Below, piece by piece: positions 1 to 37,635 of a DNA stretch of 40,000 bases (position 1 is its first letter; each line of letters starts with the position of its first letter). The notes under the pieces are model-generated. The model saw only the letters and a list, made by a program, of their open reading frames with translations, did not search any database and was not told where the DNA came from. The stretch comes from Candidatus Gracilibacteria bacterium GN02-873 (GTDB taxonomy: Bacteria; Patescibacteriota; Gracilibacteria; BD1-5; UBA2023). A program made the translations under genes and the position numbers. The DNA lies in contig MORC01000001.1 of assembly GCA_003260345.1 (NCBI GenBank), forward strand, positions 485,895 through 525,894, read 5' to 3'.

Positions 1-1401
1 CGGTTTTTTCGGATCATATGTGCGGAAATAACTCATATCATAAATTCGCGGTTTTTTCGTTCCAAGCGAACATTCGAGCGTGAGAATCGGGCAGGCAGAA
101 TCCTTTCCTACACCACCAATAGTATTTTTGGAAATCACGAGCCCATTGATATAAAGTTGGCGCTGTGGAATATGAAATTCCCCATTTTCTACATAAATAT
201 CAGCCGTTCCATCGGTTTTTTTCTCACCAGAAAATATACTTCCCTCTGCCACAATATACGCATAAATTTTTTTCACATTTCGCGTAATATAGACATTTCC
301 ACCATTTCCATTGGAGTCCTTGAGCACGATAATCGTCTTCATACGATTGGCGGATGGAACTTCGGTATTTTCATTGCCAGAATTATTAAAATCACTATTA
401 ATGACAACATCTCTTCCTTGCACAATAATTGTTTCTACATTACGATAATCCGCACTCGGGCTATCGAATCGCAAAATTTGTGTATTCGGAAGTGCATTAC
501 ATCCAGTTCCTGTCGGAGAATCAAAACAATAATCCTTGTCACTATTGTATAAAAAAGCACTCTGCTGGGAAGTATTCGGAACTGTCACATGTGCATGTGG
601 TGCCACATTTCGTGTCAGGCGCGCTACATTTCCACGAATTTCATTGATAAGCGGGGCGTGCTGAACAGTTGAATATGTAAAGCCAACATTCTGATTGACA
701 TACCGATTCTGGTTCACAACCTCAAAAACTTTGGTTCCGGCAATATTTCCAATCACCGCTACTTTTCCGATAAAATTGACGCTCGCACCACCAGCGCCAG
801 TCGGATCTTTGTACCAATTGCCTGACTGAGTAGATCAACCACCAACAATTAACGTTGATCCCGTGAGATTTTCATCATCAAATTTTACGCCTGTAAAAAA
901 TGGAACCCAACCAAGTCCTTTTGACCAGCCAAATCCTTCAAGATTTGCCGTATTTGGGTTATAATACACGCCCTGTGCATTGCCACCAATCGCGCCAGAA
1001 CCCATAATAATCCACCCAGCATTCGGACTCCAAGCCGCACCAGTCACATGACAAACCTCATTTTTGTTTTGTACGGTTGTTTCAATAATATTGTTCGGAC
1101 AAATAATTTTTGGTTTTACGGAGCCATCTCCGTGGCCAAAAGTTGCCCAACCAGATGAGCCAAGCCAAAAAACTCCATTTAACTCTCCTCTTTGGTTAAA
1201 AGTCGGTGGCAATGCGTTACTGAGGCCACTTCTCTGAAAAAGTACGCGCCCAACATTTCCTCATTTCCAGGTTTTTGGTGGCGTTAATTCTCCTTCAAGC
1301 GTAAATGAGTTATTTTGTGCATTTACAACAGCAAAAAATCCCACGCTCAAGAAAAATGTAAGTAAGAAAGAAAGGACTCCCGTGATGATTTTTGATTGCA
1401 T
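1..1401 (-). CDS. secreted hypothetical protein (3' end outside window)
   Basis: The minus frame is open from the window edge to the ATG at 1399-1401. Track ORF 835-1212 joins to both flanks across TGA at 835-837 and 1261-1263. The N-terminus MQSKIITGVLSFLLTFFLSVGFFAVVNAQN looks like a signal peptide. I recognise no domain. Confidence 0.6.
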
Positions 1402-1603
1402 AAATCGTACAATAAAAAATTTTTTTCAGTATACAAATTTTTATCAGAAATCCAAATAATTTGCTTATAAAAAGGCAATTTCGACTTGCAAGAATGAAAA
1501 AATATTGCACAATTTAGAATATTTGAAAAATTCTCACTCTGGTAAAAAATTTTTTAAGATTTTTTAGGATTTTTGAAAAATTTTACAGAATTTGAGCAAA
1601 AAT

Positions 1604-1625
1604 AAAAAGCACCGAAATGCTTTTT
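1604..1625 (-). terminator. weak hairpin terminator after pyrH
   Basis: aaaaagca-ccgaaa-tgcttttt forms an 8-bp, mostly A-T stem that overlaps the pyrH stop. A T-run follows on the minus strand. Confidence 0.3.
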
Positions 1626-2355
1626 ATTTTTTTTGGTATTTTGCAGTACAAACATAGGTTCCAACGATTTCTTCAGTGTTGATTTTGTCAACATCCTCAA
1701 TTCGGCAAACATAAATCGGCATACACTCGTCGTGTGCGAGCGCAATGGCTGCCTGATCCATCACACGAACATTTTTCTGGATGGCATCTTCAAGAGAAAG
1801 TATCTCGTAGCGAACAGCATCAGAATGTTTCTTGGGATCTTTGTCATAAATTCCGTCAACCTTTGTGGCTTTCACAACAGCATCACACTGCAATTCAAGC
1901 GCTCGCAAAACTGCCGCAGAATCTGTCGAAAAAAATGGATTTCCAGAACCACCCACACAAATCACGACACGTCATTTTTGGAGATGACGAAGCGCACGAC
2001 GCTGGATAAAATCTTCCGCTACCTTGTGCGCAGAAATCGCTGACATCACACGTACATCCACGCCCGCATCTTCTATTGCTTCACCAATCGCAATTCCGTT
2101 AATCATTGTCGCAAGCATTCCCATGTTATCGCCAGTAGCACGATCAAATCCTCCTTTTTCCAATTCAATTCCGCGAAAAATATTTCCCCCACCGACTACA
2201 ATCGCGATTTCCAGTTTTTCTTTTTGCACCAAATGTACAATTTTTTTGGCGAGATACGAGAGAAAATTTGGATCAATTCCGTATCATTGTTCTCATTGAA
2301 GTGCCTCGCCAGAAAGTTTCAATAACACGCGTTTTGGAGTTTGGAATTTTTTCAT
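1624..2355 (-). CDS. pyrH: UMP kinase
   Basis: Track ORFs 1624-1965 and 1972-2232 plus 2233-2355 form one frame if TGA (1972-74, 2284-86, 2293-95) = Gly. The product reads [29 protein letters not shown]...VVGGGNIFRG...LQK-G-RVVICVGGSGNPFFSTDSAA, the UMP kinase signature. Confidence 0.9.
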
Positions 2356-2390
2356 ACAAAAATTTTTTAAAATAAATAATAAAAAATCTC

Positions 2391-2999
2391 CTACATGAAG
2401 CGACTATACAGGAAAAATAGAAACGATGAAAGAATTACCAGAACAAAAAGAATCACCATTCCAACGATGAAAGAATTTTTTTTCTGAACTTCTTTTTCGA
2501 GCGTAGAAATTTTCTCACCAAAAAATCTCGCGTCTTCGGCGCTTTTGTTTTTAGCGTTTTCCAAAAGATTGGCTGTACGCTGATATTCAGAAACGTTGAT
2601 AGAATTTTCGAGCTCGGTTTCCATCTTGCCAACTTTGTACGACAAATCTTTGATGACTTCGTCTTTTTTGGCAATAATACCCTGTGCATCAGTATAAATG
2701 CGTGAAAATTCCGTCAATGCCATCTTGGCATCCGGACTGATTTCTTGCGATTTATTGTAGCGAGTTGGAAGAATTTCTTGTTCTGTTTCCATAGGTTCTT
2801 CATTGAGAATCACGACATAATCATCCGCCTTTCGAGCAGGATCCTCAGAGCGTAAAAGCTCAACATCATCCTCTTCCAGGAACATTTTTTTACCGATACG
2901 ACGAGTGCGGATTCGGTTGGACTGAATGTGTCGATCTACAGTGCGTGTCGATACCCCCAGCCGTTTCGCTGCTTCTGTTCTATCTAGTGTAAAAGCCAT
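2391..2999 (-). CDS. membrane-anchored HTH / coiled-coil protein
   Basis: Uninterrupted 202-aa ORF. It has an N-terminal excisionase/MerR-like HTH (AAKRLGVSTRTVDRHIQSNRI), a charged heptad-like middle and a C-terminal hydrophobic anchor (IVGMVILFVLVILSSFLFFLY). Confidence 0.6.
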   Translation of the reverse strand: MAFTLDRTEAAKRLGVSTRTVDRHIQSNRIRTRRIGKKMFLEEDDVELLRSEDPARKADDYVVILNEEPMETEQEILPTRYNKSQEISPDAKMALTEFSRIYTDAQGIIAKKDEVIKDLSYKVGKMETELENSINVSEYQRTANLLENAKNKSAEDARFFGEKISTLEKEVQKKNSFIVGMVILFVLVILSSFLFFLYSRFM

Positions 3000-3087
3000 A
3001 AAATTTAGGATAATTCCGCGAGTATTGTATGAAAAATTTTAAAAAAATCAAGCAAAAATTCTCGCCAGAAAATGCAATTTTTGGAAA

Positions 3088-3112
3088 ATAAAAACTCCCA
3101 AAATGGGAATTT
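3088..3112 (-). terminator. rho-independent terminator after the surface-protein gene
   Basis: On the minus strand attccca-ttt-tgggagt is followed by ttttatttt, 4 nt after the TAA at 3116-3118. Confidence 0.45.
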
Positions 3113-3115
3113 TTA

Positions 3116-6100
3116 TTATTTGAGAAGATCCGAGATTTTCAAAGTCGTTTCACCAGTCGAAATTTCTGGTTGAAGCGCTTCTTTTTGAGGATTGTCCAAA
3201 GTTTTTACATTTTCAAAAATATTCTGAACTGGCTTCATCACCGAAGAAATAATTTCCTGAAAATGTGTGATATTATAGAGAACTTTTGCTGTTTCCGCAA
3301 GCGACATATACGAATATGGTTCGAAAAGTCGTGGTTTTCCAGGCATTGGCTCACCATCAATTGTGTGACGACCATGAAGCAAACACTTATTATATGCATA
3401 CTGCACATAGCGCGCAAGTGGCGTATCTTGTTTTACATCTTCAAATGAAGAAATTTCATCTCCACTTGGAAGTTTTTCGCCAATTTTTCGAGTAAATTCT
3501 CCAAGAATTTTGGCTGCTTCACCACGAGAAATCTGATCATTTGGGCGGAAAATTTTGAGTGGATTTCCATCTTCATCAAATCGTTGTTTTCCATTTTTGT
3601 CGTACGAATCCTGACCATGCAAAGCACCAGTACGAAGCGCGTATGTAACATATTTTGCATACCAAGCATTCATATCCAAATCTTCAAAATTTTTCAAAGT
3701 GGTGATATCTTCGTTTTCGAGAGAAACAGAAGTTGCGTTCAGTACGAGTTTCAGAAATTCTACACGAGAAAGCGGGCGATGCATATTATTCTGATCAAGA
3801 ACTTGCAAAACATCATAGTATGCTGATAATTTTGGATCATCCAAATTTTTCACAGCAGAAAAACATTTTCCTTCTACGCTTGGTGCATATAGAATAGGCA
3901 CATGCCCTTCTGGAAATTCTGGTGATGGCGCGTCTGGCGCAGCCCCACCAGCTCCTGGTCATTTAATAAATGAAGTGGTTGGTGGATTTGTTGGTGGATT
4001 TGTTGGTGGATTTGTTGGTGGATTTGTTGGTGGATTTGTTGGTGGATTTGTTGGTGGATTTGTTGGTGGATTTGTTGGTGGATTTGTTGGTACACTATTT
4101 ACTGCCACTTCCACTTTAACATTCGCAATTTCACAATCAGTAGTGTGCTTTGGGCAAAGCTCATATTTAAATTGATAACTTCCTTGCGGATATTTTCCTG
4201 GATCAATCTGAAGATTTCCATTATTCATCAATGAAGCCTTTCCTTGAAAAACATCAGGAATTACTTTAAGAGTTGGAATAGAATTTTTTATTGTCGCCTT
4301 GATAGGTTGACCAGAAGATCGACGAGCCTGATCATTTGCGGGACTAACAATTCCTGTACCCTCATACTCAACACCTTCGTTAATTTGACGAGAAGATCGA
4401 AAAACCTGATCATTTGCAAGAATATCAATTTCTGTACGCTCAGAATCAACATTTTCGTCACGAGTAATGCTGCCAACATCATTTTGTGGTTGAGCTCCCA
4501 AAACCATGTAAGTTTCTGTAAAAAAGAAGAAATAACTGCTTTCACAATATTCTTGCCCATTTACTGTTGCACAAAATGTATAATCAGCCTGTCCCCCTAT
4601 GTGGTCTTCCCCACCGCCCAAAATTTTTAATTTATTATCCTCTACCGAAACTCTTCCTTCAAGATAACTTGGAAGGCTACCGAGGATAATGCGACGATTT
4701 TCGCCTGACTGTATTGATCCGAATTCATCCACAATCTTATCATTTTCCATCAAATCATAGACGACTTCTGGATTTTCCTCATCTTCCATTCGCTCAATAG
4801 CAATATAATCAGCCTGAGCTTCTGCATGGTATTTTGCCTCACCTTTTCGGACATTAACTTGCAATGTAATCACTAATGATTCACATGCGTGCTTCCCTTT
4901 TGGTGAATCGCCACACAATGTATATGGAATACGATATTCTCCAGCTGGATATTTGGATGCAGCAAGCTTCAAAGTTTTACCATCAAGTGAAATTTTTCAT
5001 TTCAATTCGGCTGGCATATCTGATTCATTGAGGGTAGTAGAAACATTTTCAATGCCAATATCTTCGTATGTATAGTAATTCAGAGCATAAAATGATACAC
5101 CCTTAGCAATCTCAAAAGTCATTTCATCAAAAGAGGAATCTTCTTGTCGTGTAATTGAAATTTTATCATCCTGAACACGCAAATACGAGGTATCGGGCTC
5201 CACATATTCTTTAATTTCTACAAAAATTTTCGCATCTGTACATGAAGATTTGATTTTGCCAGGAATTTCATTGGCACAAAGGGTATATGTAAATTCATAT
5301 GTTCCATCAGGTGCAGAATTTTCAATCACAACAAAATCTCCCTTATCAGTTAAATACGAACCTTTCAGTGGATGATTTCCTGTAATAGTACCAATAATAT
5401 TTCTTGTTACTGTTTTATCTTTTTCGTCAGCCTGAATGGATTTTGGTGTTGTGTCAACACCGTATTCAAGCGCTGGATCAGAATTTGGCACTACTTTGAG
5501 TTGAAAAGTAGAATTTTCTGGCGTAGCAAAGTGATAATCAGAATTATTATCAGAATCCCAAAAACCATCAAAACCAACTACATTTTGCTTATATTCTGGT
5601 GTCTCATACCCAGAGGAATGTGTAGTGCGAATCCAATCATCAGTCGGACTTACAGTCCAAGATTTTATTTTTGCTGGTTCAGTAGTCTCAGTGGAGGCCG
5701 TACCAGTCGAAACAGCACCAGTTGATGCGGCTGCACCAAAACCCGTTGCAATCCCATTTTCTGCCGACTCATCCGCAAATGCGTTCCACAAAAAAATCGA
5801 AGAACACACAAAAAGTACCGATAAAATCTGCACTATTCGTTTCATTCTGGGAGAAATATTGGTTTTCAAAGAAGTCATTGTTGGTGGATTTGTTGGTGGA
5901 TTTGTTGGTGGATTTGTTGGTGGATTTGTTGGTGCACTATTTACTGCCACTTCCACTTTAACATTCGCAATTTCACAATCAGTAGCGTGCTTTGGGCAAA
6001 GCTCATATTTAAATCGATAACTTCCTTGCGGATATTTTCCTGGATCAATCTGAAGTTTTCCATTATTCATCAATGAAGCCTTTCCTTGAAAAACATCAGG

Positions 6101-7642
6101 AATTACTTTAAGAGTTGGAATAGAATTTTTCATTGTCGCCTTGATAAGTTGACCGGAAGATCGACGAACCTGATCATTTGCGAGAATATCAATTTCTGTA
6201 CGCTCAGAATCAACATTTTCGTCACGAGCAATGCTGCCAACATCATTTTGTGGTTGAGCTCCCCAAACCATGTAAGTTTCTGTAAAAATCACGAAATAAC
6301 TGCTTTCACAATATTCTTGCCCATTTACTGTTGCACAAAATGTATAATTAGCTTGTCCCCCTATGTCGTCTTTCCCACCGCCCAAAATTTTTAATGTATT
6401 ATCTTCTACCACAACTCTTCCTTCAAGATTACTTGGAAGGCTACCGAGGATAATGCGACGCTTTTCGCCTGGCTGTGTTCATCCGAATTCATCCACAATC
6501 TTATCATTTTCCATCAAATCATAGACGACTTCTGGATTTTCCTCATCTTCCATTCGCTCAATAGTAATATAATCAGCCTGGGCTTCTGCATGGTATTTTG
6601 CCTCACCTTTTCGGACATTAACTTGCAATGTAATCACTAATGATTCACATGCATGCTTCCCTTTTGGTGAGTTGCCACACAATGTATATGGAATACGATA
6701 TTCTCCAGCTGGATATTTGAATGCAGCAAGCTTCAAGGTTTTACCATCAAGTGAAATTTTTCATTTCAATTCGGCTGGTATAGCTGATTCATTGGGGGCA
6801 GTAGAAACATTTTCAATGCCAATATCTTCGTATGTACCGTAATTCAGATCATAAAATGATGCACCCTTAGCAATCTCAAAAGTCATTTCATCGAAAGAGG
6901 AATCTTCTTGTCGTGTAATTGAAAATTTATCATCATGACCACGCAAATACGAGGTATCGGGCTTCACATATTCTTTAATTTCTACAAAAATTTTCGCATC
7001 TGCACATGAAGATTCCATTTGGTCAGGAATTTCATTGGCACAAAGGATATATGTAAATTCATATGTTCCATCAGGTGCAGAATTTTCAATCACAACAAAA
7101 TCTCCCTCATCAGTTAAATACGAACCTTTCAGTGGATGATTTCCTGTAATAGTACCAATAATATTTCTTGTTACTGTTTTGCCTTTTTCTTCAGCCTGGA
7201 TGGATTTTGGTGTTGTGTCAACATCATATTCAAGTGCTGGATCAGAATTTGGCACTACCATGAGTTGAAAAGTAGAATTTTCTGGCGTAGCAAAGTGATA
7301 ATCAAAATAATTATAAGGATCCCAAAAACTATCAGAACCAATTATATTTTGCTTATATTCTGGTGTCTCATACCCAGAGGAATGTGTAGTGTAAATCCAA
7401 TCATCAGTCGGACTTACAGTCCAAGATTGCATTTTTGCTGGTTCAGTAGGCCCAACGAACACCACACCAGTCGAAACAGCACCAGTTGATGCGGCTGTAC
7501 CAGAACCCGTTTCAGTCCCATTTTCTGCCGACTCATCCGCAAATGCATTCCACAAAAAAATCGAAGAACACACAAAAAGTACCGATAAAATCTGCACTAT
7601 TCGTTTCATTCTGGGAGAAATATTGGTTTTCAAAGAAGTCAT
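3116..7642 (-). CDS. giant SLH-anchored cell-surface protein with internal tandem duplication (1508 codons in code 25)
   Basis: Track ORFs 3116-3901, 3959-4972, 4997-6412, 6479-6736 and 6761-7735 share one frame and are separated only by TGA (3959, 4997, 6479, 6761). I checked the gap codons and found no TAA or TAG. At 6479 the paralogous codon in the other unit is TCC inside an open frame. I take the start at ATG 7640-7642, which gives the signal peptide MTSLKTNISPRMKRIVQILSVLFVCSSIFLWNAFA. The protein has eight Cys-pair modules (G.Y.F.Y.LC...C..A.V.V), (PTNP)n linkers and C-terminal SLH-like repeats (F.DV...W..YV.YA...G...G). Confidence 0.7.
3975..4091. repeat. 12-bp tandem array, about 9.5 units (ttggtggatttg), encoding (PTNP)n
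   Basis: Perfect 12-bp units run from 3979 to 4086 with partial units at both ends. The array lies inside the surface-protein CDS, and the other frames give the spurious QQIH and GGFV track ORFs. Confidence 0.95.
3979..5878. repeat. tandem duplication unit B (~1.90 kb)
   Basis: Collinear with 5879-7642: signal peptide, four Cys-pair modules and a PTNP array. It is longer than unit A by five PTNP units (60 bp) and a 78-bp internal duplication. Confidence 0.9.
5879..7642. repeat. tandem duplication unit A (1764 bp)
   Basis: The ATG at 7640-42 and the ATG at 5876-78 are exactly 1764 bp (588 codons) apart. The sequence is highly similar to unit B along its whole length. Confidence 0.9.
5881..5933. 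repeat. 12-bp tandem array, about 4.5 units, encoding (PTNP)n
   Basis: The same ttggtggatttg unit as at 3975-4091, with 4 full copies. It is followed directly by the internal ATG and signal-peptide codons. Confidence 0.95.
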
Positions 7643-7808
7643 TTTATAAAAGATTACGAAATACCTCTGTAAGATATCATATTTTTTTCGAATTTGCAAA
7701 AATCCAGATATTTCAAAATTTTTTACTATTGACAATTTTATTTTTTATTGTAATAAATTTATAAAATTTTCCAGGAAAAATTATTTCAAAAATTTTTTGA
7801 CAAAAAAT

Positions 7809-7836
7809 TTGCTTTTTCAAAAATTTTCTATACAAT
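7809..7836 (+). promoter_or_regulatory. sigma70-like promoter for tRNA-Gln
   Basis: TTGCTT (7809-14), N16, TACAAT (7831-36), 18 nt upstream of the tRNA 5' end. The -35 sits in the motif aaaaatTTGCTTttt, which recurs upstream of ssrA and ybaB. Confidence 0.45.
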
Positions 7837-7854
7837 TCGTGTGCTTTCAAGTTT

Positions 7855-7929
7855 TGGGGTATAGCCAAGCGGTAAGGCAGCGGACTTTGACTCCGTCATT
7901 CGTAGGTTCGAATCCTACTACCCCAGCCA
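7855..7929 (+). tRNA. tRNA-Gln (anticodon UUG), CCA encoded
   Basis: Cloverleaf read by eye. The acceptor is TGGGGTA/TACCCCA with the U1-A72 pair typical of bacterial tRNA-Gln. The D arm GCCAAGCGGTAAGGC matches E. coli tRNA-Gln. The anticodon loop is CTTTGAC, the T arm is GTAGGTTCGAATCCTAC, and the 3' end is GCCA. Confidence 0.93.
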
Positions 7930-7935
7930 TTTGCA

Positions 7936-7968
7936 ACAAAAAATCCTCTCCTCGAGGATTTTTATTTT
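7936..7968. terminator. bidirectional hairpin terminator (tRNA-Gln / pirin)
   Basis: aatcctc-tcctc-gaggatt is flanked by an A-tract upstream and tttatttt downstream. It lies between two convergent genes. Confidence 0.6.
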
Positions 7969-7975
7969 GTGTTTT

Positions 7976-8839
7976 TTAATTGAGAAGCCCAACACTATAA
8001 TCACGAAAAGCTTGCATAAGATCAGTTGGATTATCCATTACAAATGGTCCATAATTAAAAACTCCCTGCCCAAGTGGTGTTCCAGACATCACAAGAATTT
8101 TAGAATTTTCAGTCGCAAAAATCTCGATAGAATCACCTTTTTGAGAAAAATATACAAGCTCAGAATGAGCAATATCTTTATCATTTACCTTCGCAGAACC
8201 AGCAGCCACCAACATCATTGTGTTATCGCCGTCTCGAAGATTTATGAGTAATTTTCCAGAGTTTTCAAAGCGAATATCATAGAGCTCAATTGGAGAAAAT
8301 GTTTTTGCAGGACCTTTTGTATGATCAAATTCTCCTGCGATTACTCGTATTTTTCCGTTTTCAAAAGACACTTCTGGAATATCTTCTTTCGTGATAGATT
8401 GATATCGTGGTTCAGTCATTTTGTCTGCGGCTGGCAAATCTACCCAAAGTTGAACCATATGCTGTGTTCCGCCTTTTTTGGAAAAATTTTCACTCATATA
8501 TTCATTGTGCATAAGGCCAGATCCTGCCGTCATCCATTGTACATCGTCAGCAAAAATAATCCCATGATTGCCTCGCGTATCATTGTGTTCAATCTCGCCT
8601 GCATACGCGATTGTTACCGTTTCAAAACCTCGATGTGGATGATATCCAACGCCCGGACGATGACCCTTGCTCTGTGCGGGAACTTCCCATGGAGCATTAT
8701 AATCCATCATCAAAAAAGGACTTGTCTCGGCCGTCATTTCACGACCATAACCTGGCATAAGTTGTGTTACATTGAAGCCATCACCTACCATGTGATTGTC
8801 ATTTGGTCGCTCATGGCGAATAATTGTTTTTGTAGTCAT
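7976..8839 (-). CDS. pirin family protein (cupin)
   Basis: Uninterrupted 287-aa [28 protein letters not shown] and [11 protein letters not shown] are the pirin N-terminal cupin metal-site motifs. It contains no in-frame TGA. Confidence 0.85.
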
Positions 8840-9010
8840 AATTATTTTTTAGAAATTAAATGGATTATCACATTAAAAACTGGTGGCAAAATTCTATCAA
8901 AACTCAAATCCTCATGCATTATATCATTTTACTTTAAAAATTAAAGTAATTTTTCATACTTTTTTTCTAAAATATTAATTTGTTGGCTTATTGATACGCA
9001 AAATTTGCAT

Positions 9011-9032
9011 AAAAAATCTCACTTTCGTGAGA
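9011..9032 (-). terminator. rho-independent terminator of ssrA
   Basis: On the minus strand tctcac-gaaa-gtgaga is followed by tttttt, 12 nt after the tmRNA CCA end. Confidence 0.65.
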
Positions 9033-9044
9033 ATTGTTTTCATC

Positions 9045-9475
9045 TGGTGGAGATGGCGGGCACCGCCCCCGCGTCTAATAGGGCAAACCGAGTGATTCTA
9101 CTTATTATAGAAATTTTTGAATAGATTTTCAGACAAGAAAAATTTCAAAAAACTGAAAATCAAAATTTTTAAAATACAAATATTTTTACAAAAATTTTAA
9201 AAACTCCGAATATTCGTTCTATAAAATAATTTTCTCATTATAGAAATCTGAGAAAATGGTTGTAGCAGGCCATCTGGCACTCAATCCATCGGAAAGGCTA
9301 CGCTTCGCTATAAGTTAGGCAATAGCGTAAGCTGGAGCTGCCTTGAAAGATTTTGCAAGGCGAGTAAGAGGAGATGTCTTTGCATCTAAGTTTTTCCCTT
9401 TGATAACGAGGCGAGAAGCCCCGAATAAGCACAAACGACTTGCGAAGTCCTACTATCAAATCCTGTATCATCCCC
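9045..9475 (-). ncRNA. ssrA: tmRNA (transfer-messenger RNA), 431 nt
   Basis: The 5' end GGGGATGATACAGGATTTGA and 3' end GACGCGGG-GGCGGTG-CCCGCCATCTCCACCA match tmRNA ends, and the acceptor GGGGATG/CATCTCC has the G3-U70 Ala identity pair. The tag ORF at 9383-9315 reads GCA AAG ... GCT ATT GCC TAA = AKTSPLTRLAKSFKAAPAYAIA*. It is preceded by AAAAACTTAGAT, like the E. coli resume context. Confidence 0.88.
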
Positions 9476-9489
9476 AGAATGACAAAAAA

Positions 9490-9517
9490 ATTATAAAAAA
9501 TTTTTAGAAAAAAGCAA
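9490..9517 (-). promoter_or_regulatory. sigma70-like promoter for ssrA
   Basis: Minus strand: TTGCTT (9517-9512), N16, TATAAT (9495-9490), 14 nt upstream of the mature 5' GGGG. Confidence 0.55.
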
Positions 9518-9635
9518 ATTTTTCGAAAAAAATATTTTTGTACGATTTTAAGGTAAAAATAATCTATTTTTTGATATATTTTTCAAAATATGATTTTTCA
9601 TACTTTTCATACTTTTAAAAATTATAACGATTTTA

Positions 9636-9660
9636 AAGCAAAAATCCGCCAAATGGCGGA
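9636..9660 (-). terminator. rho-independent terminator
   Basis: On the minus strand tccgcc-attt-ggcgga is followed by ttttt, 17 nt after the TAA at 9678-80. Confidence 0.6.
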
Positions 9661-9677
9661 ATACAACGGAATGAATA

Positions 9678-10157
9678 TTATCGAGTATGAAGCGTAGCAA
9701 GAATAGTTTTGGCTGAAGGAGAATCCAAATCTCCCTCAATAACAGCAATTCCACGAGAAAGTCGCGAATATGCACGAGGTTGATTAGAATGATGTTTTGC
9801 TTCTACTTCGTCGATATTTCCACTCAAATAAAAGGAAACTCGAACACGAGCATCTTCAAAAATTACTCATTCCTGCGGATCCACCGCCACTACTTCCCCA
9901 CCAGAAAACGCTTGATTTTGGTATTTGTCTTCATTCTCACCACGAAAACCAAACCCTATCCCTTCATTCCAGTACGATACCTGTTGCACGTCACCAATTG
10001 GCGGAGTTGCGGGAACTTGTGCCGCCAATTCCCCTCCCCCAAAGAGATTTCGTGAGAGGTATAGAATTGAGAGAATACCGAGCGTCGTCAGCGCCTGAAT
10101 CCATTGAGCTGCCGTTCGAAAACGGTTTTTATGTCCAAAAGAATTTCTGTTACTCAT
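9678..10157 (-). CDS. hypothetical membrane-anchored protein
   Basis: Track ORF 9867-10157 continues in frame past the TGA at 9867-69 to the TAA at 9678-80, giving 159 aa. The N-terminal region has one hydrophobic helix (AAQWIQALTTLGILSILYL). I recognise no family. Confidence 0.55.
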
Positions 10158-10356
10158 AATATAAAAACCTTAACAAAAGAACAAACATACTTTAACATAC
10201 TTTTTTTAATTTGTCAATATTATTGCAACAAATTTTTAAAATGTCAAATAGTTGATTTTTCATTATATTTAAAGGAAAAAATGATTTTATGAGAAATGTT
10301 TTTGTAAAAATGAAAAAGTTTTTATACTAAAATATATTTATCAATGTTTTATTGAA

Positions 10357-11064
10357 ATGATACAAAAATCAAAAATAATTTTTCTTATTGCACCAAGCGA
10401 AAGTAAAAATACCCAAAACGAAAAAAATCTTCCAGAAAACTTGAGTTTTACTTTCATAAAGCCAAAAGAAATTGCTGAAAATGCCACAGAAAAAGACCTC
10501 AAATGTTCTGGAAAACGTTATGATGAGGCCATGATATTGAATTTAACAAATGGAAATTCTCCCGTTCTAGAAGCCATTTTTCGATATAATGGTGTGCAAT
10601 TTAAACATTTGGATTATGAAAATCTGAGTGAAAAATGACAGCATTTTTTTGATGAAAATGTTTTGATTTTATCAGGAATGTACGGGATTGTTCGCCCTAA
10701 AGACCTGATTGGTAACTATAAACTACCGATTGAAGTTCGTGGATTGTATGATTTTTGGGGAAACAAAATCGCGAAAAGAATCATCGCAGAAAATCCTGAT
10801 TATATCATAAATCTTCTGCCGAAATCCTATGAAAAATTATTAAAAATTCGCGAAAACCTCGGACAACTCAAAGAGAGAAATATTAAAATCCTCAATATGA
10901 TTTTTGTATCGAAAAATGGTGAAAAATTCTCACACAATACCAAAGTTTTGCGCGGAAAATTTTTGAAAAATGTAGTCGAAAATATGCGAGAAAATTTTCT
11001 AGAATCCATTCAATTTGAAGATAATGGCGAAATTATTCGGGAAATTTCGATTTTAGTAGAATAA
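10357..11064 (+). CDS. yaaA: YaaA / DUF328 (peroxide-stress protein family)
   Basis: Track ORFs 10357-10638 and 10663-11064 join across the TGA at 10636-38. IFLIAPSESKN...LILSGMYGIVRPKDLIGNYKLPI resembles the family motif LSGLYG..RP.D.I..YRL. Confidence 0.7.
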
Positions 11065-11120
11065 TTTTGAAAAAAATTTTTATTTTTCGTAAAAATGAGT
11101 ATTATACGCGAAAATTTTCT

Positions 11121-12641
11121 ATGTCTCTCCATCTTTATAATACACTGAATCGTGAAAAAGAGCGATTCAAGCCACTTCGTCAGGATGAAGTGAAGGTTTA
11201 TTTTTGTGGGCCAACGCCTTACAATTATGCGCATATCGGAAATCTTCGAGCCTATTTATTCGAGGATATTGTGATTCGTACGCTCAAATTTCTGGGATAT
11301 CGCGTCAAAACCGTAATGAATGTGACGGATATCGACGATAAAACTATTCGTGATAGTCAAAAATCAGGAAAAACCCTCAAAGAATTTACCGAATTTTATA
11401 CAACAGAATTTTTGAAAGATTTGGATCGTCTGGGAATTCAACGAGCAGACACGATCGCACCGATCTCTACGCTGATTGACGAAATGCGAGTAATGATTCA
11501 AGGTCTTCTGGATCGGGATTTTGCATATATTGCAGACGACGGAAGTGTGTATTATCGCGTAGAAAAATTTAAAAATTACGGAAAATTGGCGAATCTTGAT
11601 ACCAAAGGTATGATTTCGAGCGTTCGTATCAATAATGACGAATACGATAAAGATCAAATCGCGGATTTTGCTCTTTGGAAAGCATACAATAGCGAGGCTG
11701 ATGGGGAAAATTTTTGGGAAATTGAAGTTTTTGAAAAAAATGGTAACGAAAAAATTTCAAAAATTCTGAAGGGGCGCCCAGGTTGGCATATTGAATGTAG
11801 TGCGTGTAATTACAAATTTTTTGGCGAGCAAATCGACATTCATATGGGCGGGATTGACAATCTTTTTCCGCATCACCAAAATGAAGTTGCGCAAACTGAG
11901 GCTTTCACTGGTAAACAATTTTCCAAATATTGGCTTCATGGTGGACATTTGTTGGTGGATAACAAAAAAATGTCAAAATCTGCTGGCAATTTTTATACAC
12001 TTCGTGACATCATCGAAAAATGGAGTGAAAAATTTGATGAAAAAATCGTTTGCCGTGCAATGCGATTAATGAATCTCCAAAATCGATATCGCGAAAATTT
12101 TAATTTTACCAATGATCGCCTCGAATCCGCGATAAATACGATAAAATGAATGGATGAAATGATGAAGCGTCTCGGTTTTTCGATGCAAGGTGAGGAAGAA
12201 AATACGGAGCGAACGGCGCGTGGAAAGCTGAAATTTCACGATATTACACGCGAATTTCGAGATAATATTCAGGGATTGATGCAAGATTTTGTAGCTTTTT
12301 TGGAAGATGATTTTTCTACTCCTGAAGCCCTTGCGGTCGTTTTTGAAATGCATTCTTGGATCAATTCTGGAATTGATGAAAATATTTTTTCTCTCGAAGA
12401 AAAAAAGGCATTGGTCGGCCTTATGAAAACGTGGGACGAAGTGCTTGGGATTTATGATTTTTCCCTTCTGGATGGAGAAAATGACATTCCAGAAAATATT
12501 AAAAAATTGGCGGAAGCACGCAAAATGGCAAAAGATCTCAAAAATTGGTCAGAAGCTGATAAAATTCGCGATGAAATCACAAATCTCGGCTACAAAATGA
12601 TCGATGAAAAAGACGGGAAATTCCGAATTGAAAAAATATAA
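11121..12641 (+). CDS. cysS: cysteinyl-tRNA synthetase
   Basis: Track ORFs 11067-12149 and 12150-12641 join across the TGA at 12147-49. Start taken at ATG 11121 (MSLHLYNTLNREKERF). HIGN (YAHIGNLRAY) and KMSKS (NKKMSKSAGNF) motifs and WHIECSA are present. Confidence 0.9.
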
Positions 12642-12664
12642 AATCCCAATTTTGGGATTTTTTT
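12641..12664 (+). terminator. rho-independent terminator of cysS
   Basis: aaatccca-attt-tgggattt is followed by tttt and starts at the stop codon. Confidence 0.6.
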
Positions 12665-12785
12665 GTAGGGAAAATCGGAAAAAATATCTTTGTGAGAAAA
12701 ATCATCAAACAATCCGTAAAAAAAGCAAAAATAAAATGGATTTTTTAAAAATTTTCGTTACAATGGCTCAAAATAATTTTTCTCT

Positions 12786-14519
12786 ATGCAATCAGTTCAA
12801 TCAGCTCTTCAAGAAATTTTTTCAAAACTATACAATCTCCATCCAACTTTTGAAATCACAGCCGCACCAAAACCAGAATTTGGTGAATTTTGTATCAATG
12901 TTTTTCCTTTTACAAAAGTACTCTCGAAAGCTCCAAACGAAATTTCAGAAGAAGTGGCATGCGAACTTGAAGATTTTTCCGAAAGTATCAAAAAAGCGAC
13001 AGCCACTGGTGGATATGTGAATTTTTTCTTGACAGACGCATACTGGCAAGAAATTTTTAGCAATATTGTGTCAGCGGAAAAACCAGCCCCCAAAAATGAA
13101 ACCGTTGTAGTAGATTACATCGGAATGAATGTTGGAAAACCACCGCACATCGGCCACATTTGTACGCCACTTTTGGGGCAAGCGATTATCAATACGCTTC
13201 GTTATGCGGGTTATACAGTGATTGGTGATTCGCACCTCGGAGATTGGGGATCACTTTTTGGAAAATTGATTGTAGGATTTCAAAAATATGGAAACGCTCA
13301 GAAACTTCAAGATGATGCTATTTCTCATCTTTTGGAAGTCTATGTGGCCATCAATGCTGACATAGAAACCGATGAATCTGTAGAACAAGCATGTCGCGAT
13401 GCTTTCAAAAAATTGAGTGAAGGCGACGCGGAATATGTGAAAATTTGGGCAGATTTCACCACGGCGACTATTTCTACCAACAAAAAAATCCTCAAACTTA
13501 TGCATATTCATCAGGATTTTGATATTGGAGAAAGCTTTTATGAAGGGCTTAATTTACCAAAAATCGGAACACATCCAGATTTGCAATACGATATGAACTC
13601 GATTGTGGAAGAACTTTTGGAGAAAAAAATTGCTACACAAAATGATGATGGCTCTGTGGGCGTGATCTTCCCAGAAGAAACAAAAATGCCGTCAACCATT
13701 CTTCGAAAAAAAGATGGAACCAACCTTTATCTGACGAGCGACCTGGCAACCATCAAATATCGCATGACAAACGGCTGGAATCCGACAAAAATTCTTTATT
13801 TTGTGGATGTTCGTCAATCATTGCATTTGAAGCAAGTTTTTTGGGTTGCGAAGCATGCTTGGAATATCGATCATGTAGAGCTTTTTCATGCTGCAAACGG
13901 CGCTATCGTGCTTCCAGAAGGCGCGATGAGTACGCGAAAAGGAAATATTATTCGCCTCGATGCGCTTGTTGAGGAGGGATTTTCTCGTGTTAAAAAAGTG
14001 CTCGAAGAAAAAGGTCGAACTGGCGAGAATTCCCTTTCTGATAAGGATATCACAGAAATCACGATTGGTGCCATCAAATACTCATATCTTTCACAAGATC
14101 GTGAGCGTGATGTAGTTTTTACTTGGGATAAAGCGCTCAATTTTGAGGGAAATTCTGGTCCATATATTCAATATGCGTATGTTCGCGCCAAAAAAATTGG
14201 ACAAAATGTTGATTTGCCAACATTTGAACAAAATCCAAATCTCGAACTTTCTGCGAATGATAAATTACTCATCGCAAAAATTCGTGAATTTCCAAAAAAA
14301 GTGAACGAAACTCTCGCAAAATACAAACCACACATTCTCGCGAATTATGCGTACGATGTAGCGGTTGCTTTCAATAGTTTTTATGTTCATACGCCAAAAA
14401 TCTTGGAAGAAAAAAATAAAAACCTCAAATTTTTCCGTCTCCATTTGGTAGCAAAAACCGCCGAAATCCTCAAAAAAACATTTGAACTTCTTGGTATCGA
14501 AATGCCGAGTGAAATGTAA
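12786..14519 (+). CDS. argS: arginyl-tRNA synthetase
   Basis: Uninterrupted 577-aa ORF with a class I HIGH motif (PPHIGHICTP) and the DALR-type anticodon-binding C-terminus ending ...GIEMPSEM. It contains no in-frame TGA. Confidence 0.9.
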   Translation: MQSVQSALQEIFSKLYNLHPTFEITAAPKPEFGEFCINVFPFTKVLSKAPNEISEEVACELEDFSESIKKATATGGYVNFFLTDAYWQEIFSNIVSAEKPAPKNETVVVDYIGMNVGKPPHIGHICTPLLGQAIINTLRYAGYTVIGDSHLGDWGSLFGKLIVGFQKYGNAQKLQDDAISHLLEVYVAINADIETDESVEQACRDAFKKLSEGDAEYVKIWADFTTATISTNKKILKLMHIHQDFDIGESFYEGLNLPKIGTHPDLQYDMNSIVEELLEKKIATQNDDGSVGVIFPEETKMPSTILRKKDGTNLYLTSDLATIKYRMTNGWNPTKILYFVDVRQSLHLKQVFWVAKHAWNIDHVELFHAANGAIVLPEGAMSTRKGNIIRLDALVEEGFSRVKKVLEEKGRTGENSLSDKDITEITIGAIKYSYLSQDRERDVVFTWDKALNFEGNSGPYIQYAYVRAKKIGQNVDLPTFEQNPNLELSANDKLLIAKIREFPKKVNETLAKYKPHILANYAYDVAVAFNSFYVHTPKILEEKNKNLKFFRLHLVAKTAEILKKTFELLGIEMPSEM

Positions 14520-14527
14520 TTTCCCTT

Positions 14528-16570
14528 ATGATCAAAAAAATTTTTTTCATTCTCGCGACTTGGATTTTTCTTTTTTCCACGAATGTTTTGGCTCAAAATT
14601 CACTTCCATTCACGGATATTGGAGAAAATTCGCCATATTTTTCTGCGGTCAAAAATCTCTACGATGCGCGCGTAATTTCTGACGATGGAAGTCATTTATT
14701 TCATCCAGAATCACCAATGAATCGTGATTTTTTCGTATCGCTCGCGGTGCAAATTGGTTGTAAAAAATGTCTCACACCAACGCTTGATGACCTTATAAAA
14801 TACCAAAATTCGCCATTCGTGGATTTGCCGAAGACGAACGAATTTTATTATTGTATTGCGCACGCGGAAAATGAAAAAATTGCACAGGGATACATTCCAG
14901 ATGCTTCTGGGAAAGTAAGCTGTGAAAACGGCCAACAATACCAATCCAACCCTTTTTGTGCCGACAATTCTATCACACGAATTGAAGCGGCTGCGATGCT
15001 TTTGCGACGCGCAAATCTCTGGAATGATAGCCTGAATTCTGGAAATTTTGACCGATCAGAAAATATTTCTGATGCGGATAATTATTGGTATGGATATGCC
15101 AAAAAGGCCTTGGAAATCGGAATTTTGACAAAAAATTCTGACAATTCTGTCAAACCAAATAAAAAAATCACACGCGGAGAATTTGCAAAAATGGCATCTG
15201 TAATTTTGGAATATTCGCAGTGTAATACAACAAGTGATGATAATTCAGAGGCATCTTTTATTGAAATTCACGACAAAAATAACACCCCAACGGACCGGAC
15301 GATTTTTGAGGAGAGAGAGAAATTTACATTTGTGCCACGCATGGAAGGCGGAAATCATAAGCATTCCTGGACGGCGCACGATGGCAATGGGCGGACTATC
15401 ACGAGTGATGATACTATTTTTGATGGTTCAAAATTGCCGCCTGGAAAATGGTTTATTGAAGACAAAATTACTGATCCAAGTTCTGGAAAAATTGTTTCAA
15501 GACCAAGCGTAACGATTACTGTAATGCCAAAAAATCCGAGCGAAATCACGAAAAATAACCCCTCAGATAACGATACTGATGGCGACGGTGTGAAAAATTC
15601 TGACGACAAATGTCCGACGATTCCTGGATCCATAAGTAACGAGGGTTGTCCTTTTGCAAAAGAAAAAATTGGCGTTTCGATTACAGGAAATCCAATTGTA
15701 ACACATATTGATAATCCTATTACTTTCACTCCAAAAATCACGGGCACAACGGAAAATAATCTTCACTATCGATGGGATTTTGGCAATGGAAATTCAAGCA
15801 ATAATTCTGGAACTCAGACCCATTCATACGGAAAATCTGGAACATATACCATAACGCTGACTGTAACGAATCCAAAAACGGGCGAAACTGGACAATCTAC
15901 GATGATTATCAGAATTACGGATAACAAAGATACTGATGGCGATGGAATTTTTGATCACGAAGACAAATGCCCGCTCGTTCGTGGAACACGCGCCAATCAA
16001 GGCTGTCCAGATGTTACAGCACCAGATTATGGTTGTACAATTCGTGGCGTGTATAATGGGAATGCTGATTGCAACAATCAAACCCTCGATCGCGATGGAG
16101 ATGGAGTCAATGATTCTGAGGATCAATGTCCTGATATTCCTGGCTCAAAAAATAATCATGGTTGTCCAGAAAATCCTGATGGAGACGATGATAATGATGG
16201 CACCAAAAATTCATCTGATCGGTGCCCAAAGATTCCTGGTCCAGCAGAAAATTTTGGTTGTCCACGTGATACTGATGGCGACAAAGTTCCAGATATTTCT
16301 GACAAATGTCCAGCCGTTCGTGGTCTTCCAGAGTGGCAAGGCTGTCCGCACCCAGATCTTTATAATAACATTTCGCAAAATGTTTGTCTGCTTGAAAAAC
16401 TCAATAATCAAGGACTTATCACGGGAGTTCCTGCTTGTAACTCGTGCCCATGCGTAAATAATATTACTATCACAAGCCATATACGTGATTGTGATGTACT
16501 ATTTCCATCCATTCTGTCGCCTGACAAAAATACGATTTATTCGCGTTGAAATTTTTATCTTATCCAATAA
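14528..16570 (+). CDS. secreted SLH / PKD / thrombospondin-type-3-repeat surface protein
   Basis: Track ORF 14528-16549 reads through the TGA at 16547-49 to the TAA at 16568-70. It has a signal peptide (IFFILATWIFLFSTNVLAQN), SLH-like N-terminal repeats and a PKD-like segment (HYRWDFGNGN...GTYTITLTVTN). Five D.DGD...D.CP..G calcium-binding TSP3-type repeats follow. Confidence 0.75.
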
Positions 16571-17283
16571 TGCGCATTCATTTTCGTAGTCGATTTTCTC
16601 GAACAAAAATCCCATGACATTCCCTTCAGAAAAATAAAAATCTTGGAACTGATTGGGAAGGAATCCGTACGTACGCTCCAACGGGCGATGCACGGCATAT
16701 TGTCTGGAAAAAATCGAGCGAGCCACAATGATATTTTGAAAAAACTTTTGAGGAAAATTCAGGAATTTCACTGCTTTTTGTTAATATTCATGACGATTCG
16801 GATTTTTTCGATGATGGAAAATCTCCAACACGACACGATTGGAAAAAGAAAAATTTGGCAATTTTAGTCAATAATGCGCGTTCCGCTAATATTTCGCACC
16901 AAATTCTGGAATTTCATTCTTGGAAAGAGTTTTTGCAATTTACCCTCAAAAATCAATTCAATCACTATTTGATTATACTTTTTGCAAATACACCTCTCGA
17001 TTTTCAAGAAAAAAATTTTGCTAAAATTGCGAGCCTCAACGAAATTATTTGGCTTTGGTGTTATCATACTTTTGAGAAAAATCCCCACGAAAATACCATT
17101 TTTGATGGGAAAATTTTTCCAAAAAAAGCGGCTCAAAAATACCTGACCGCCATGGCAGAACAAGAAAAATTTCACGAAAAGATCCTCACGAAGCATCGAA
17201 GTTTTTTTCTCACAACAGACACAAGTCATTCAGTAGAGCGCGTTCTCAATCATTTTTTCAAATATCAGTATGTTCAAAAATAA
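16570..17283 (+). CDS. DUF58 family protein
   Basis: The ATG at 16570-72 overlaps the upstream TAA (TAATG). The frame joins to track ORF 16855-17283 across TGA at 16615-17 and 16720-22. G-HSLQKNKNLGTDWEGIRTYAPTGDARHIVWKKSS fits the DUF58 core (G...S...G.G.EF...R.Y..GD..R.I.W). Confidence 0.6.
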
Positions 17284-18892: not shown

Positions 18893-18895
18893 ATT

Positions 18896-37528: not shown

Positions 37529-37635
37529 AAAATTTTTTGTAAAATATTTTTATTTTCCGAAATTCGGCAGATAAAAATATTGACTTGAAAAATTTTCATA
37601 TTCATAAATTCTAATTTTTAAAAATCTCTATTTAT

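What the first reader, a model, noticed from the sequence alone, without database searches (positions are those of the whole stretch)
3959..7642. In-frame ~1.8-kb tandem duplication of a whole surface-protein unit, including a perfectly conserved internal signal peptide
The ATG plus signal peptide MTSLKTNISPRMKRIVQILSVLFVCSSIFLWNAFA occurs twice, at 7642 and 5878, exactly 588 codons apart. The second copy follows the first unit's (PTNP)4 linker directly, with no stop codon of any kind. The locus therefore reads as SP-unitA-linker-SP-unitB-linker-SLH anchor. From each ATG through ADESAENG (about 129 nt) the two copies differ by a single synonymous change (aat/aac). Right after the predicted AFA-D cleavage site they diverge, and most substitutions are amino-acid changing (for example TETGSGTAAS...VVFVGPTEPAKMQ versus IATGFGAAAS...TASTETTEPAKIK). 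By eye roughly nine residues in ten remain identical. Strict conservation of the internal signal peptide next to fast-changing mature sequence suggests it is functional. It could act as an internal translation start for a second protein or as a second signal-peptidase site that releases unit A. The pattern also suggests diversifying selection on exposed domains.
Basis: partly seen in the sequence, partly recalled or inferred. Interest (0 to 1): 0.7.

Follow-up and report, generated by a model that had tools for sequence, protein, structure and literature searches.

The report
Two strain alleles joined head-to-tail
The two "duplicated" surface-protein units are two strain variants of one single-copy gene of a human-mouth Gracilibacteria placed one after the other, probably by a mis-join during assembly, so the identical internal signal peptide is inherited and is not evidence of a new function.

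Summary
The sequence is as described. On the minus strand, ATG plus an identical 35-residue signal peptide occurs at 7642 and 5878, 588 codons apart. The second copy follows (PTNP)4-PT with no stop. The window uses genetic code 25 (TGA = Gly), so the gene runs 7642..3116 (1,508 codons) with four sense TGAs and a C-terminal SLH anchor.

The interpretation mostly fails:
- Unit A plus its upstream flank is 99.99-100% identical to contigs from other human oral metagenomes.
- Unit B plus 1.5 kb downstream (5879..2466, 0 mismatches) is identical to contigs from different strains.
- In both strain types the unit is the only copy at this same locus.
- All 31 contigs spanning the locus hold one unit (13 gap-free). 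The junction was found nowhere else.

The A/B pattern is therefore ordinary allelic divergence. The signal peptide is conserved, the next ~70 codons have dN/dS about 8, and the whole unit has dN/dS 1.4.

The A part stops exactly where k = 55 assembly contigs run out inside the 12-nt linker repeat. My estimates are about 0.6 for a false duplication of two strain haplotypes, about 0.33 for a very recent real recombinant, and about 0.03 for an old in-situ duplication. Interest is low.

The parts
3116..7642 (-). Whole reading frame as it stands in the window: 1,508 codons plus TAA under code 25, in the order SP - unit A - linker - SP - unit B - linker - SLH region
   Evidence: open frame with only TAA/TAG as stops and four in-frame TGA. 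TGA aligns with Gly in FtsZ and DprA.
7538..7642 (-). Signal peptide 1 (35 codons). It has a positive n-region (K5, R11, K13, R14), a hydrophobic core (I15-W31) and AFA|D.
   Evidence: hydropathy, translation. Judged by inspection; no SignalP was available.
5935..7537 (-). Unit A mature part. It belongs to the 'A-type' strain haplotype together with the upstream flank.
   Evidence: window 13642..5878 is 99.99-100% identical to L001-L008 from 8 other samples.
7298..7516 (-). Hypervariable segment of unit A (codons 43-115). Its counterpart in unit B is 5534-5752.
   Evidence: dN/dS about 8; population nucleotide diversity peaks at 0.109 at nt 150-224.
5879..5934 (-). Linker A: CA + 4 x CCAACAAATCCA + CCAAC, a 55-nt periodic run (5934..5880), then A at 5879. 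It encodes (PTNP)4-PT.
   Evidence: nine independent scaffolds/contigs stop at this same 55-nt point.
5876..5882 (-). Junction: ...CCAAC|A|ATG. Two nt (AA) could belong to either side.
   Evidence: It was not found in any other assembly.
5774..5878 (-). Signal peptide 2, which is internal in the window. It is the normal N-terminal signal peptide of the B allele.
   Evidence: in L009-L013 and L015 the same ATG follows the native promoter/5'UTR.
4092..5773 (-). Unit B mature part
   Evidence: 100% identical to L009-L013 and L015.
4307..4458 (-). 78-nt internal tandem repeat present in unit B and absent from unit A (26 extra codons)
3978..4091 (-). Linker B: 9 full 12-nt copies plus CCAAC (a 114-nt periodic run)
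3116..3958 (-). C-terminal region with the SLH cell-wall anchor, following sense TGA 3961-3959
   Evidence: PF00395, E 1.2e-8, 35.2 bits (cut-off 20.8).
2466..5879 (-). Block of 'B-type' strain sequence (3,414 nt, 0 mismatches to L009/L010). At 2465 the window switches abruptly to about 2% divergence.

Best explanation
The locus encodes one hypervariable, SLH-anchored surface protein of a human-oral Gracilibacteria (code 25, TGA = Gly). Its normal form is: signal peptide, one unit of about 535 residues, a (PTNP)n linker, then the SLH anchor.

Units A and B in the window are two alleles of this single-copy gene from two different strains. They are not paralogues that diverged in place. The shared signal peptide and the strongly non-synonymous divergence just after it are the ordinary allelic pattern of this gene.

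The head-to-tail arrangement is most likely a heterotype false duplication made during assembly. It was then abutted to a contig of strain B that begins in the conserved signal-peptide block.

Shown: the allelic identity of both units, single-copy status elsewhere, and the position of the breakpoints. Inferred: that the join is an assembly artefact.
For: 1. Unit A plus 7.7 kb upstream is 99.99-100% identical to L001-L008. Where those contigs read through (L002, L006), unit A is followed by linker and SLH, with no second unit.
2. Unit B is the only unit, behind the native promoter, in L009-L013 and L015. The window is identical to L009/L010 over 5879..2466, then about 2% divergent.
3. B-type contigs are only 92-97.5% identical to the window's upstream flank. 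A-type contigs differ from the window's SLH region at 9 sites in about 400 nt. Neither single-unit type can therefore be a deletion derivative of the tandem.
4. 31 of 31 distinct contigs spanning ATG to the HTH gene measure 2.7-3.1 kb, against 4.64 kb in the window. Thirteen of them are gap-free.
5. The junction was found in no other collection or protein record.
6. A-type contigs L001, L004, L005, L006 and L008 continue the linker repeat beyond the point where the window turns into ATG.
7. The window's A part ends after a 55-nt periodic run. Nine other scaffolds/contigs end at exactly that point. Contig ends in this linker track the assembler's k: 31, 55, 67, 77, 79 and about 118.
8. 18 of the 31 scaffolds have a scaffold gap at this very linker, so joins are routinely made here.
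9. False tandem duplication of divergent haplotypes, sometimes with wrongly filled gaps, is a documented assembly error (PMC9516828).
Against: - There are no Ns at the junction. A de Bruijn assembler cannot by itself create the novel junction k-mers.
- I could not reconstruct which tool would abut the two contigs.
- The start of the B part at -2..0 relative to the ATG is not explained by a k = 55 bubble boundary. The nearest known polymorphisms are at +50, +56 and +59.
- The join is in frame. That is a 1-in-3 chance for an artefact.
- Linker B (114 nt) was assembled through while linker A was not.
- The source reads were not available, so coverage and read pairs were not checked.
- Recombination demonstrably moves alleles of this gene between strains, so a real event is plausible.
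Confidence: 0.6

Rival explanations
1. The tandem is real but very recent. An A-type cell took up B-type DNA. The downstream end recombined homologously (crossover near 2466). The upstream end joined illegitimately inside linker A at a 2-nt microhomology (AA). This is homology-facilitated illegitimate recombination. The product would be an in-frame two-allele fusion whose internal signal peptide has not yet been tested by selection.
For: - The structure is exactly that of a one-sided homologous replacement: A flank and unit A, then a B block 5879..2466, then a third haplotype.
- AA microhomology lies at the junction.
- The window encodes DprA, a transformation protein.
- The identical B allele sits in three backgrounds whose upstream 4 kb differ by 3.5-8.5%, so allele exchange at this locus is real.
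- The junction has no gap and is in frame.
Against: - It was seen in no other assembly. Five near-identical A-type contigs lack it.
- The coincidence of the left breakpoint with the k = 55 run-out has roughly a 1-in-40 chance among in-frame positions.
- Both parts show zero mismatches to their parental alleles, which forces the event to be extremely recent.
Confidence: 0.33
2. This is an established in-situ tandem duplication whose copies diverged under diversifying selection. The internal signal peptide is kept by selection as an internal translation start or a second signal-peptidase site.
For: - dN/dS is above 1 in the mature part, and the signal peptide has 0 non-synonymous changes.
- The organism uses no Shine-Dalgarno motifs, so an internal ATG after an unstructured A/C-rich linker could in principle initiate translation.
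Against: - Each copy is 100% identical to a single-copy allele in other strains with different flanks.
- The single-unit forms cannot derive from the tandem, because their flanks and SLH regions do not match it.
- The locus is single-unit in 31 of 31 spanning contigs and in the GTDB relative L024.
- The signal peptide's dS equals the unit's dS, and the signal peptide is polymorphic in the population.
Confidence: 0.03
3. A targeted diversification system, such as a diversity-generating retroelement with a template/variable repeat pair, or a silent-cassette expression site, produces the two related copies.
For: The hypervariable segment sits next to conserved blocks.
Against: - The substitution spectrum is balanced (61 transitions, 27 transversions) with no adenine bias.
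- The repeat is 1.8 kb, not about 0.1 kb.
- There are no other copies or inverted repeats in the 40 kb.
- The variation is explained by alleles in other strains.
Confidence: 0.01

Closest known systems
Heterotype false duplication in genome assemblies (two haplotypes of one locus placed in tandem; Ko et al. 2022, PMC9516828)
   Same: - The two copies are alternative alleles of a single-copy locus.
- The region is the most divergent part of the neighbourhood.
- The break lies at a repeat where contigs end and scaffolders join.
   Different: - The haplotypes here are co-occurring bacterial strains in a metagenome, not the two sets of a diploid.
- There is no N gap at the junction.
- Read-depth and read-pair criteria could not be applied.
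Homology-facilitated illegitimate recombination during natural transformation (from my own knowledge: de Vries and Wackernagel 2002; Prudhomme et al. 2002)
   Same: - One end is a clean homologous switch (2466/2465).
- The other end is a join with 2-nt microhomology.
- The donor and recipient sequences are both identifiable.
   Different: - No experimental or read-level support.
- The usual products are insertions of foreign DNA, not an in-frame head-to-tail fusion of two alleles.
Hypervariable, recombining surface proteins with a conserved leader and conserved anchor (for example mosaic pneumococcal surface proteins; SLH-anchored S-layer and adhesin proteins of Gram-positive-type envelopes)
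   Same: - Conserved promoter and signal peptide, a hypervariable exposed N-terminal part, a Pro/Thr-rich repeat linker of variable copy number, and a conserved SLH anchor.
- Identical alleles occur in diverged backgrounds.
   Different: - The unit itself has no family assignment. There is only a weak Big_9 hit, and an Ig-like roughly 60-residue repeat shared with giant multi-repeat proteins.
- The host is a code-25 Gracilibacteria, and no function has been tested.
Polyproteins with internal signal sequences (for example flavivirus polyproteins; from my own knowledge)
   Same: If translated as written, a second cleavable-looking signal sequence lies inside a secreted precursor.
   Different: - There is no evidence of processing.
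- The internal copy is simply the leader of the second allele.
- After a translocated domain, such a segment would more likely act as a stop-transfer helix with its positive charges on the wrong side.

Membership tests
In-situ diverged tandem gene duplication | The two-copy arrangement is shared by related genomes of the lineage | tested here: not met
   31 of 31 spanning contigs are single-unit. L002 and L006 (A type) and L009 (B type) are gap-free single units. The GTDB relative L024 has a single unit.
In-situ diverged tandem gene duplication | The copies diverged from each other after duplication, so neither is identical to a separate single-copy allele | tested here: not met
   Unit A is 100% identical to L002-L008, and unit B is 100% identical to L009-L013 and L015.
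Heterotype false duplication (assembly) | The two copies are alternative alleles of one locus, each with its own flank type | tested here: met
   The A part carries the A flank and the B part carries the B downstream block. The flanks of the other type differ by 2.5-7.6%.
Heterotype false duplication (assembly) | The junction lies at an assembly break (a gap, a wrongly filled gap, or a contig end) | tested here: inconclusive
   The A part ends at the 55-nt run-out seen in nine other scaffolds/contigs, and 18 scaffolds have their gap here. The window itself has no Ns.
Heterotype false duplication (assembly) | About half read depth on each copy, and discordant read pairs across the junction | not testable with these tools
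   The source reads are not available.
Homology-facilitated illegitimate recombination product | One homologous crossover plus one illegitimate junction with short microhomology | tested here: inconclusive
   There is a sharp switch at 2466/2465 and AA microhomology. Both are also expected by chance or from an artefact.
Sec-type (signal peptidase I) signal peptide | A positive n-region, a hydrophobic core of 10-20 residues, and small residues at -3 and -1 (AxA) | tested here: met
   K5, R11, K13 and R14; core I15-W31 with hydropathy up to 2.75; AFA|D. Judged by inspection only, with no predictor.
SLH-anchored cell-surface protein | An SLH domain above Pfam's gathering score | tested here: met
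   PF00395: 35.2 bits against a cut-off of 20.8, in 2 stretches.
Genetic code 25 (Gracilibacteria/SR1, UGA = Gly) | In-frame TGA at positions that are conserved Gly in homologues | tested here: met
   FtsZ x aligns with G. DprA x aligns with G at two sites (ivGsr, vpGs) in both chains shown, and at a third in one. The nearest genome is a Candidatus Gracilibacteria MAG.
Genetic code 25 (Gracilibacteria/SR1, UGA = Gly) | A tRNA-Gly with anticodon UCA | not testable with these tools
   The only tRNA in the window is tRNA-Gln(TTG). The rest of the genome was not available.
Diversity-generating retroelement target | Adenine-specific differences between template and variable repeat, with a reverse transcriptase nearby | tested here: not met
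   The spectrum is balanced, with mismatches at G 26, A 22, C 21 and T 19 in unit A. No further repeat copies exist in the window. I did not specifically search for a reverse transcriptase.

The most novel reading that the evidence does not exclude
The tandem is real. A strain of oral Gracilibacteria has very recently fused two divergent alleles of its hypervariable SLH-anchored surface protein in frame, by one-sided homologous plus illegitimate recombination. The result is a two-headed adhesin with a complete signal peptide in the middle. That internal peptide could be cleaved, could act as a membrane anchor, or could serve as an internal start in an organism that uses no Shine-Dalgarno motifs.
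Probability: 0.3. Interest if true: 0.45.

Novelty: not a real feature. Interest (0 to 1): 0.2.

Why it matters
As a duplication it probably does not matter. It is a warning that strain-mixed metagenome assemblies can place two alleles of a hypervariable gene in tandem and so mimic gene-family expansion, internal signal peptides and post-duplication positive selection.

What is real and useful is the locus itself:
- It is a single-copy, SLH-anchored surface protein of a human-oral Gracilibacteria.
- It has a conserved leader, a roughly 70-codon segment with dN/dS about 8, and a copy-number-variable PTNP linker.
- Identical alleles are shared between diverged genomic backgrounds.
- This marks it as a likely host- or prey-contact or immune-exposed protein, and as a strain marker.

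Public gene calls split this gene into 3-4 fragments because they use code 11.

Tried and rejected
- A homologue search with the full protein returned nothing, apparently because the PTNP low-complexity words swamped the candidate list. Repeating it with the unit alone worked.
- The junction-spanning code-11 ORF (471 aa, tried with V or M as the start) is not on record.
- The junction 40-mer is absent from GTDB representative genomes and from JGI metagenomes. A 20-mer gave four unrelated chance hits.
- I tried to find a contig 100% identical to window 2465..1, to show that the window returns to the A strain there. I used exact look-ups of four downstream proteins. Every retrieved contig differs by about 2%, so this remains inferred.
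- AlphaFold2 on the N-terminal half with a 10-allele alignment gave pLDDT 32, which is unusable. No fold search was run.
- Pfam gives no family for the unit.
- I tried to explain the start of the B part by a k-mer bubble boundary and found no fitting polymorphism.
- I considered a scenario in which the tandem is ancestral and the single units are deletion derivatives. I rejected it because the flanks and SLH regions do not match.
- I rejected a DGR on the substitution spectrum.
Full report
**1. What is in the sequence**

On the minus strand a single frame runs from ATG 7642 to TAA 3118-3116 if TGA is read as sense. It contains four in-frame TGAs, at 6763, 6481, 4999 and 3961.

The window uses genetic code 25.
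- In FtsZ the TGA aligns with a Gly of B. subtilis FtsZ.
- In DprA TGAs align with Gly at the ivGsr and vpGs motifs.
- The nearest public genome is a Candidatus Gracilibacteria MAG from the human mouth.

The protein reads, in order:
- a signal peptide of 35 residues;
- unit A;
- (PTNP)4-PT;
- the same signal peptide again;
- unit B;
- (PTNP)9-PT;
- a C-terminal region with an SLH anchor (PF00395, 35.2 bits).

The two ATGs are 588 codons apart. The first 127 nt of the copies differ at one synonymous site. Overall the units differ at 88 of 1,764 nt and are 88.4% identical in protein. Unit B carries an extra 26-codon internal repeat.

**2. Selection pattern**

Nei-Gojobori estimates under code 25 are:

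| Region | dN/dS | Non-synonymous | Synonymous |
|---|---|---|---|
| Whole unit | 1.42 | 73 | 15 |
| Codons 43-115 | about 8 | 24 | 1 |
| Rest of mature part | 1.08 | 49 | 13 |
| Signal peptide (codons 1-42) | 0 | 0 | 1 |

The synonymous divergence of the signal peptide (0.037) equals that of the whole unit (0.039). There is thus no sign of homogenisation, only of purifying selection on the leader. Other 42-codon windows have just 1-2 non-synonymous changes. One other 133-nt stretch has a single mismatch.

**3. The two units are alleles of a single-copy gene**

*A type.* Exact-protein look-ups found the N-terminal fragment of unit A in 18 contigs from other human oral metagenomes.
- These contigs are 99.99-100% identical to the window from 13642 down to 5878.
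- Where they read through the linker (L002, L006), unit A is followed directly by TTSFIK-G-PGAGG and the SLH region, so there is one unit.
- Their SLH region differs from the window's at 9 sites in about 400 nt.

*B type.* The N-terminal fragment of unit B was found in 8 contigs, several of them 240 kb long. There it starts behind the native promoter and 5'UTR at the same locus, with pirin upstream and SLH plus an HTH gene downstream.
- The window is identical to L009/L010 from 5879 to 2466 (3,414 nt, no mismatch). It then diverges abruptly to about 2%.
- Those B-type contigs are only 92-97.5% identical to the window's upstream flank.

The window is therefore an A-strain flank plus unit A, followed by a B-strain block that begins at the ATG. 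The single-unit forms cannot be deletion derivatives of a tandem ancestor, because their flanks are of the wrong type.

**4. Copy number elsewhere**

- Thirty-one distinct contigs or scaffolds span from the ATG to the HTH gene. All measure 2.7-3.1 kb, against 4.64 kb in the window. Thirteen are gap-free and 18 carry a 100-N gap in the linker.
- The more distant GTDB relative L024 also has one unit, with a leader that differs at 5 of 35 residues.
- The junction sequence and any junction-spanning protein were absent from every collection I could query.
- Five A-type contigs that are virtually identical to the window continue the linker repeat past the point where the window turns into ATG.

**5. 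Why the leader is conserved**

Across 21 haplotypes the promoter, leader and linker are moderately conserved, and the segment just after the leader is hypervariable. Nucleotide diversity there is up to 0.109, against 0.032 for the leader. The leader itself has about 22 polymorphic sites.

Alleles A and B happen to share nearly the same leader because each evolved as the N-terminal leader of a single-unit gene. This conservation says nothing about function at an internal position.

**6. Artefact or real event**

*Evidence for an artefact.* The left side of the junction is telling. Contig ends inside this 12-nt repeat track the assembler's k. Periodic runs are 30-31 nt in Logan contigs, 55 nt in nine scaffolds/contigs, and 67, 77, 79 and about 118 nt in others. 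The window's A part ends after exactly that 55-nt run (5934..5880), followed by A and then ATG. Among in-frame positions this is roughly a 1-in-40 coincidence for a real event. The linker is also where most assemblies break and where scaffolders join. Tandem placement of divergent haplotypes, sometimes with wrongly filled gaps, is a documented error class (PMC9516828).

*Evidence against an artefact.*
- There is no N gap.
- De Bruijn assembly alone cannot invent the junction k-mers.
- The start of the B part at the ATG is not explained by a k-mer boundary.
- The join is in frame.

*Evidence for a real event.* Recombination at this locus is real: the identical B allele sits in three backgrounds whose upstream 4 kb differ by 3.5-8.5%. 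The structure also fits a one-sided homologous plus illegitimate (AA microhomology) event.

*Weighing.* I put the artefact at about 0.6 and a very recent real recombinant at about 0.33. In either case the fusion is too young for selection to have acted on the internal leader, since both parts have zero mismatches to their parental alleles.

**7. If it were translated as written**

The internal segment (residues 589-623) is as hydrophobic as the first leader. It follows an already translocated domain, with its positive charges on the N-terminal side. It would therefore more likely stall as a mis-oriented stop-transfer helix than be cleaved. The organism shows no Shine-Dalgarno motifs upstream of 15 genes, so internal initiation cannot be excluded from the sequence. 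These points are inference only.

**8. What the protein is**

- The unit has no Pfam family, only a weak Big_9 hit.
- An exhaustive HMMER search found one close representative. Otherwise it found only matches of the last ~60 residues to Ig-like repeats of giant multi-repeat proteins.
- The word-based search found 12 clusters, all 83-100% identical fragments from the same lineage.
- Structure prediction failed, with pLDDT 32.
- It is best described as a lineage-specific, SLH-anchored, hypervariable surface protein.

**9. Verdict**

Interest is low.

Noticed in passing
window, whole; e.g. 37615-38952 (FtsZ), 17237-18403 (DprA), 18893-19897 (MurG): The window uses genetic code 25 (TGA = Gly). Nearly every long gene has in-frame TGAs. 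Public gene calls made with code 11 split the surface-protein gene into 3-4 ORFs of 293, 85, 175-325 and 245-261 aa.
   Followed up: yes
window 7298-7516 and 5534-5752: There is a hypervariable segment just after the signal-peptide cleavage site. dN/dS is about 8 between the two alleles, and population nucleotide diversity peaks at 0.109. The alleles look mosaic, for example VVFVGPTEPAKMQ versus TASTETTEPAKIK in different combinations.
   Followed up: partly
L009, L010, L015 (unit B allele) versus their flanks: The same 1,780-nt allele is 100% identical in three genomic backgrounds whose upstream 4 kb differ by 3.5-8.5%. This points to recent allele exchange or a gene-specific sweep, with a breakpoint near the gene start.
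   Followed up: partly
window 3978-4091 and 5879-5934; linkers in L001-L044: The 12-nt PTNP linker varies from 2 to at least 16 copies between strains. It is where most assemblies break, and the amount of repeat left at a contig end equals the assembler's k (31, 55, 67, 77, 79, about 118).
   Followed up: yes
window 4307-4458: A 78-nt internal tandem repeat (ANDQ..RRSS motif region) is present in the B allele and absent from the A allele. It is an in-frame indel polymorphism inside the Big_9-like part.
   Followed up: partly
window 1-2465: This stretch carries about 25 variants that are private relative to all 40 or more retrieved contigs. It is a rare haplotype, presumably that of the A strain, but I could not show this.
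   Followed up: partly
upstream 30 nt of 15 genes across the window: There are no Shine-Dalgarno-like motifs. The start codons are preceded by A/T-rich sequence, which suggests SD-independent initiation in this organism.
   Followed up: partly
window 7976-8848 (pirin) and its homologues in L014-L060: The pirin gene next to the locus is intact in the window (0 TGA). In many other contigs it is called as two or three fragments, so it may hold in-frame TGAs or frameshifts in those strains.
   Followed up: no
window 14420-16570 (+) and 1-1440 (-): Two further large putative surface proteins are present. The first has an SLH-like N-terminal segment, PKD-like repeats and DxDGDG/Cys-rich thrombospondin-type-3-like repeats, judged by eye from the translation. 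The second lies next to a beta-helix (pectate-lyase-like) protein in related contigs.
   Followed up: no
window 7855-7929 (+): A tRNA-Gln(TTG) lies between pirin and the surface-protein promoter, on the opposite strand. It is the only tRNA in the window.
   Followed up: no
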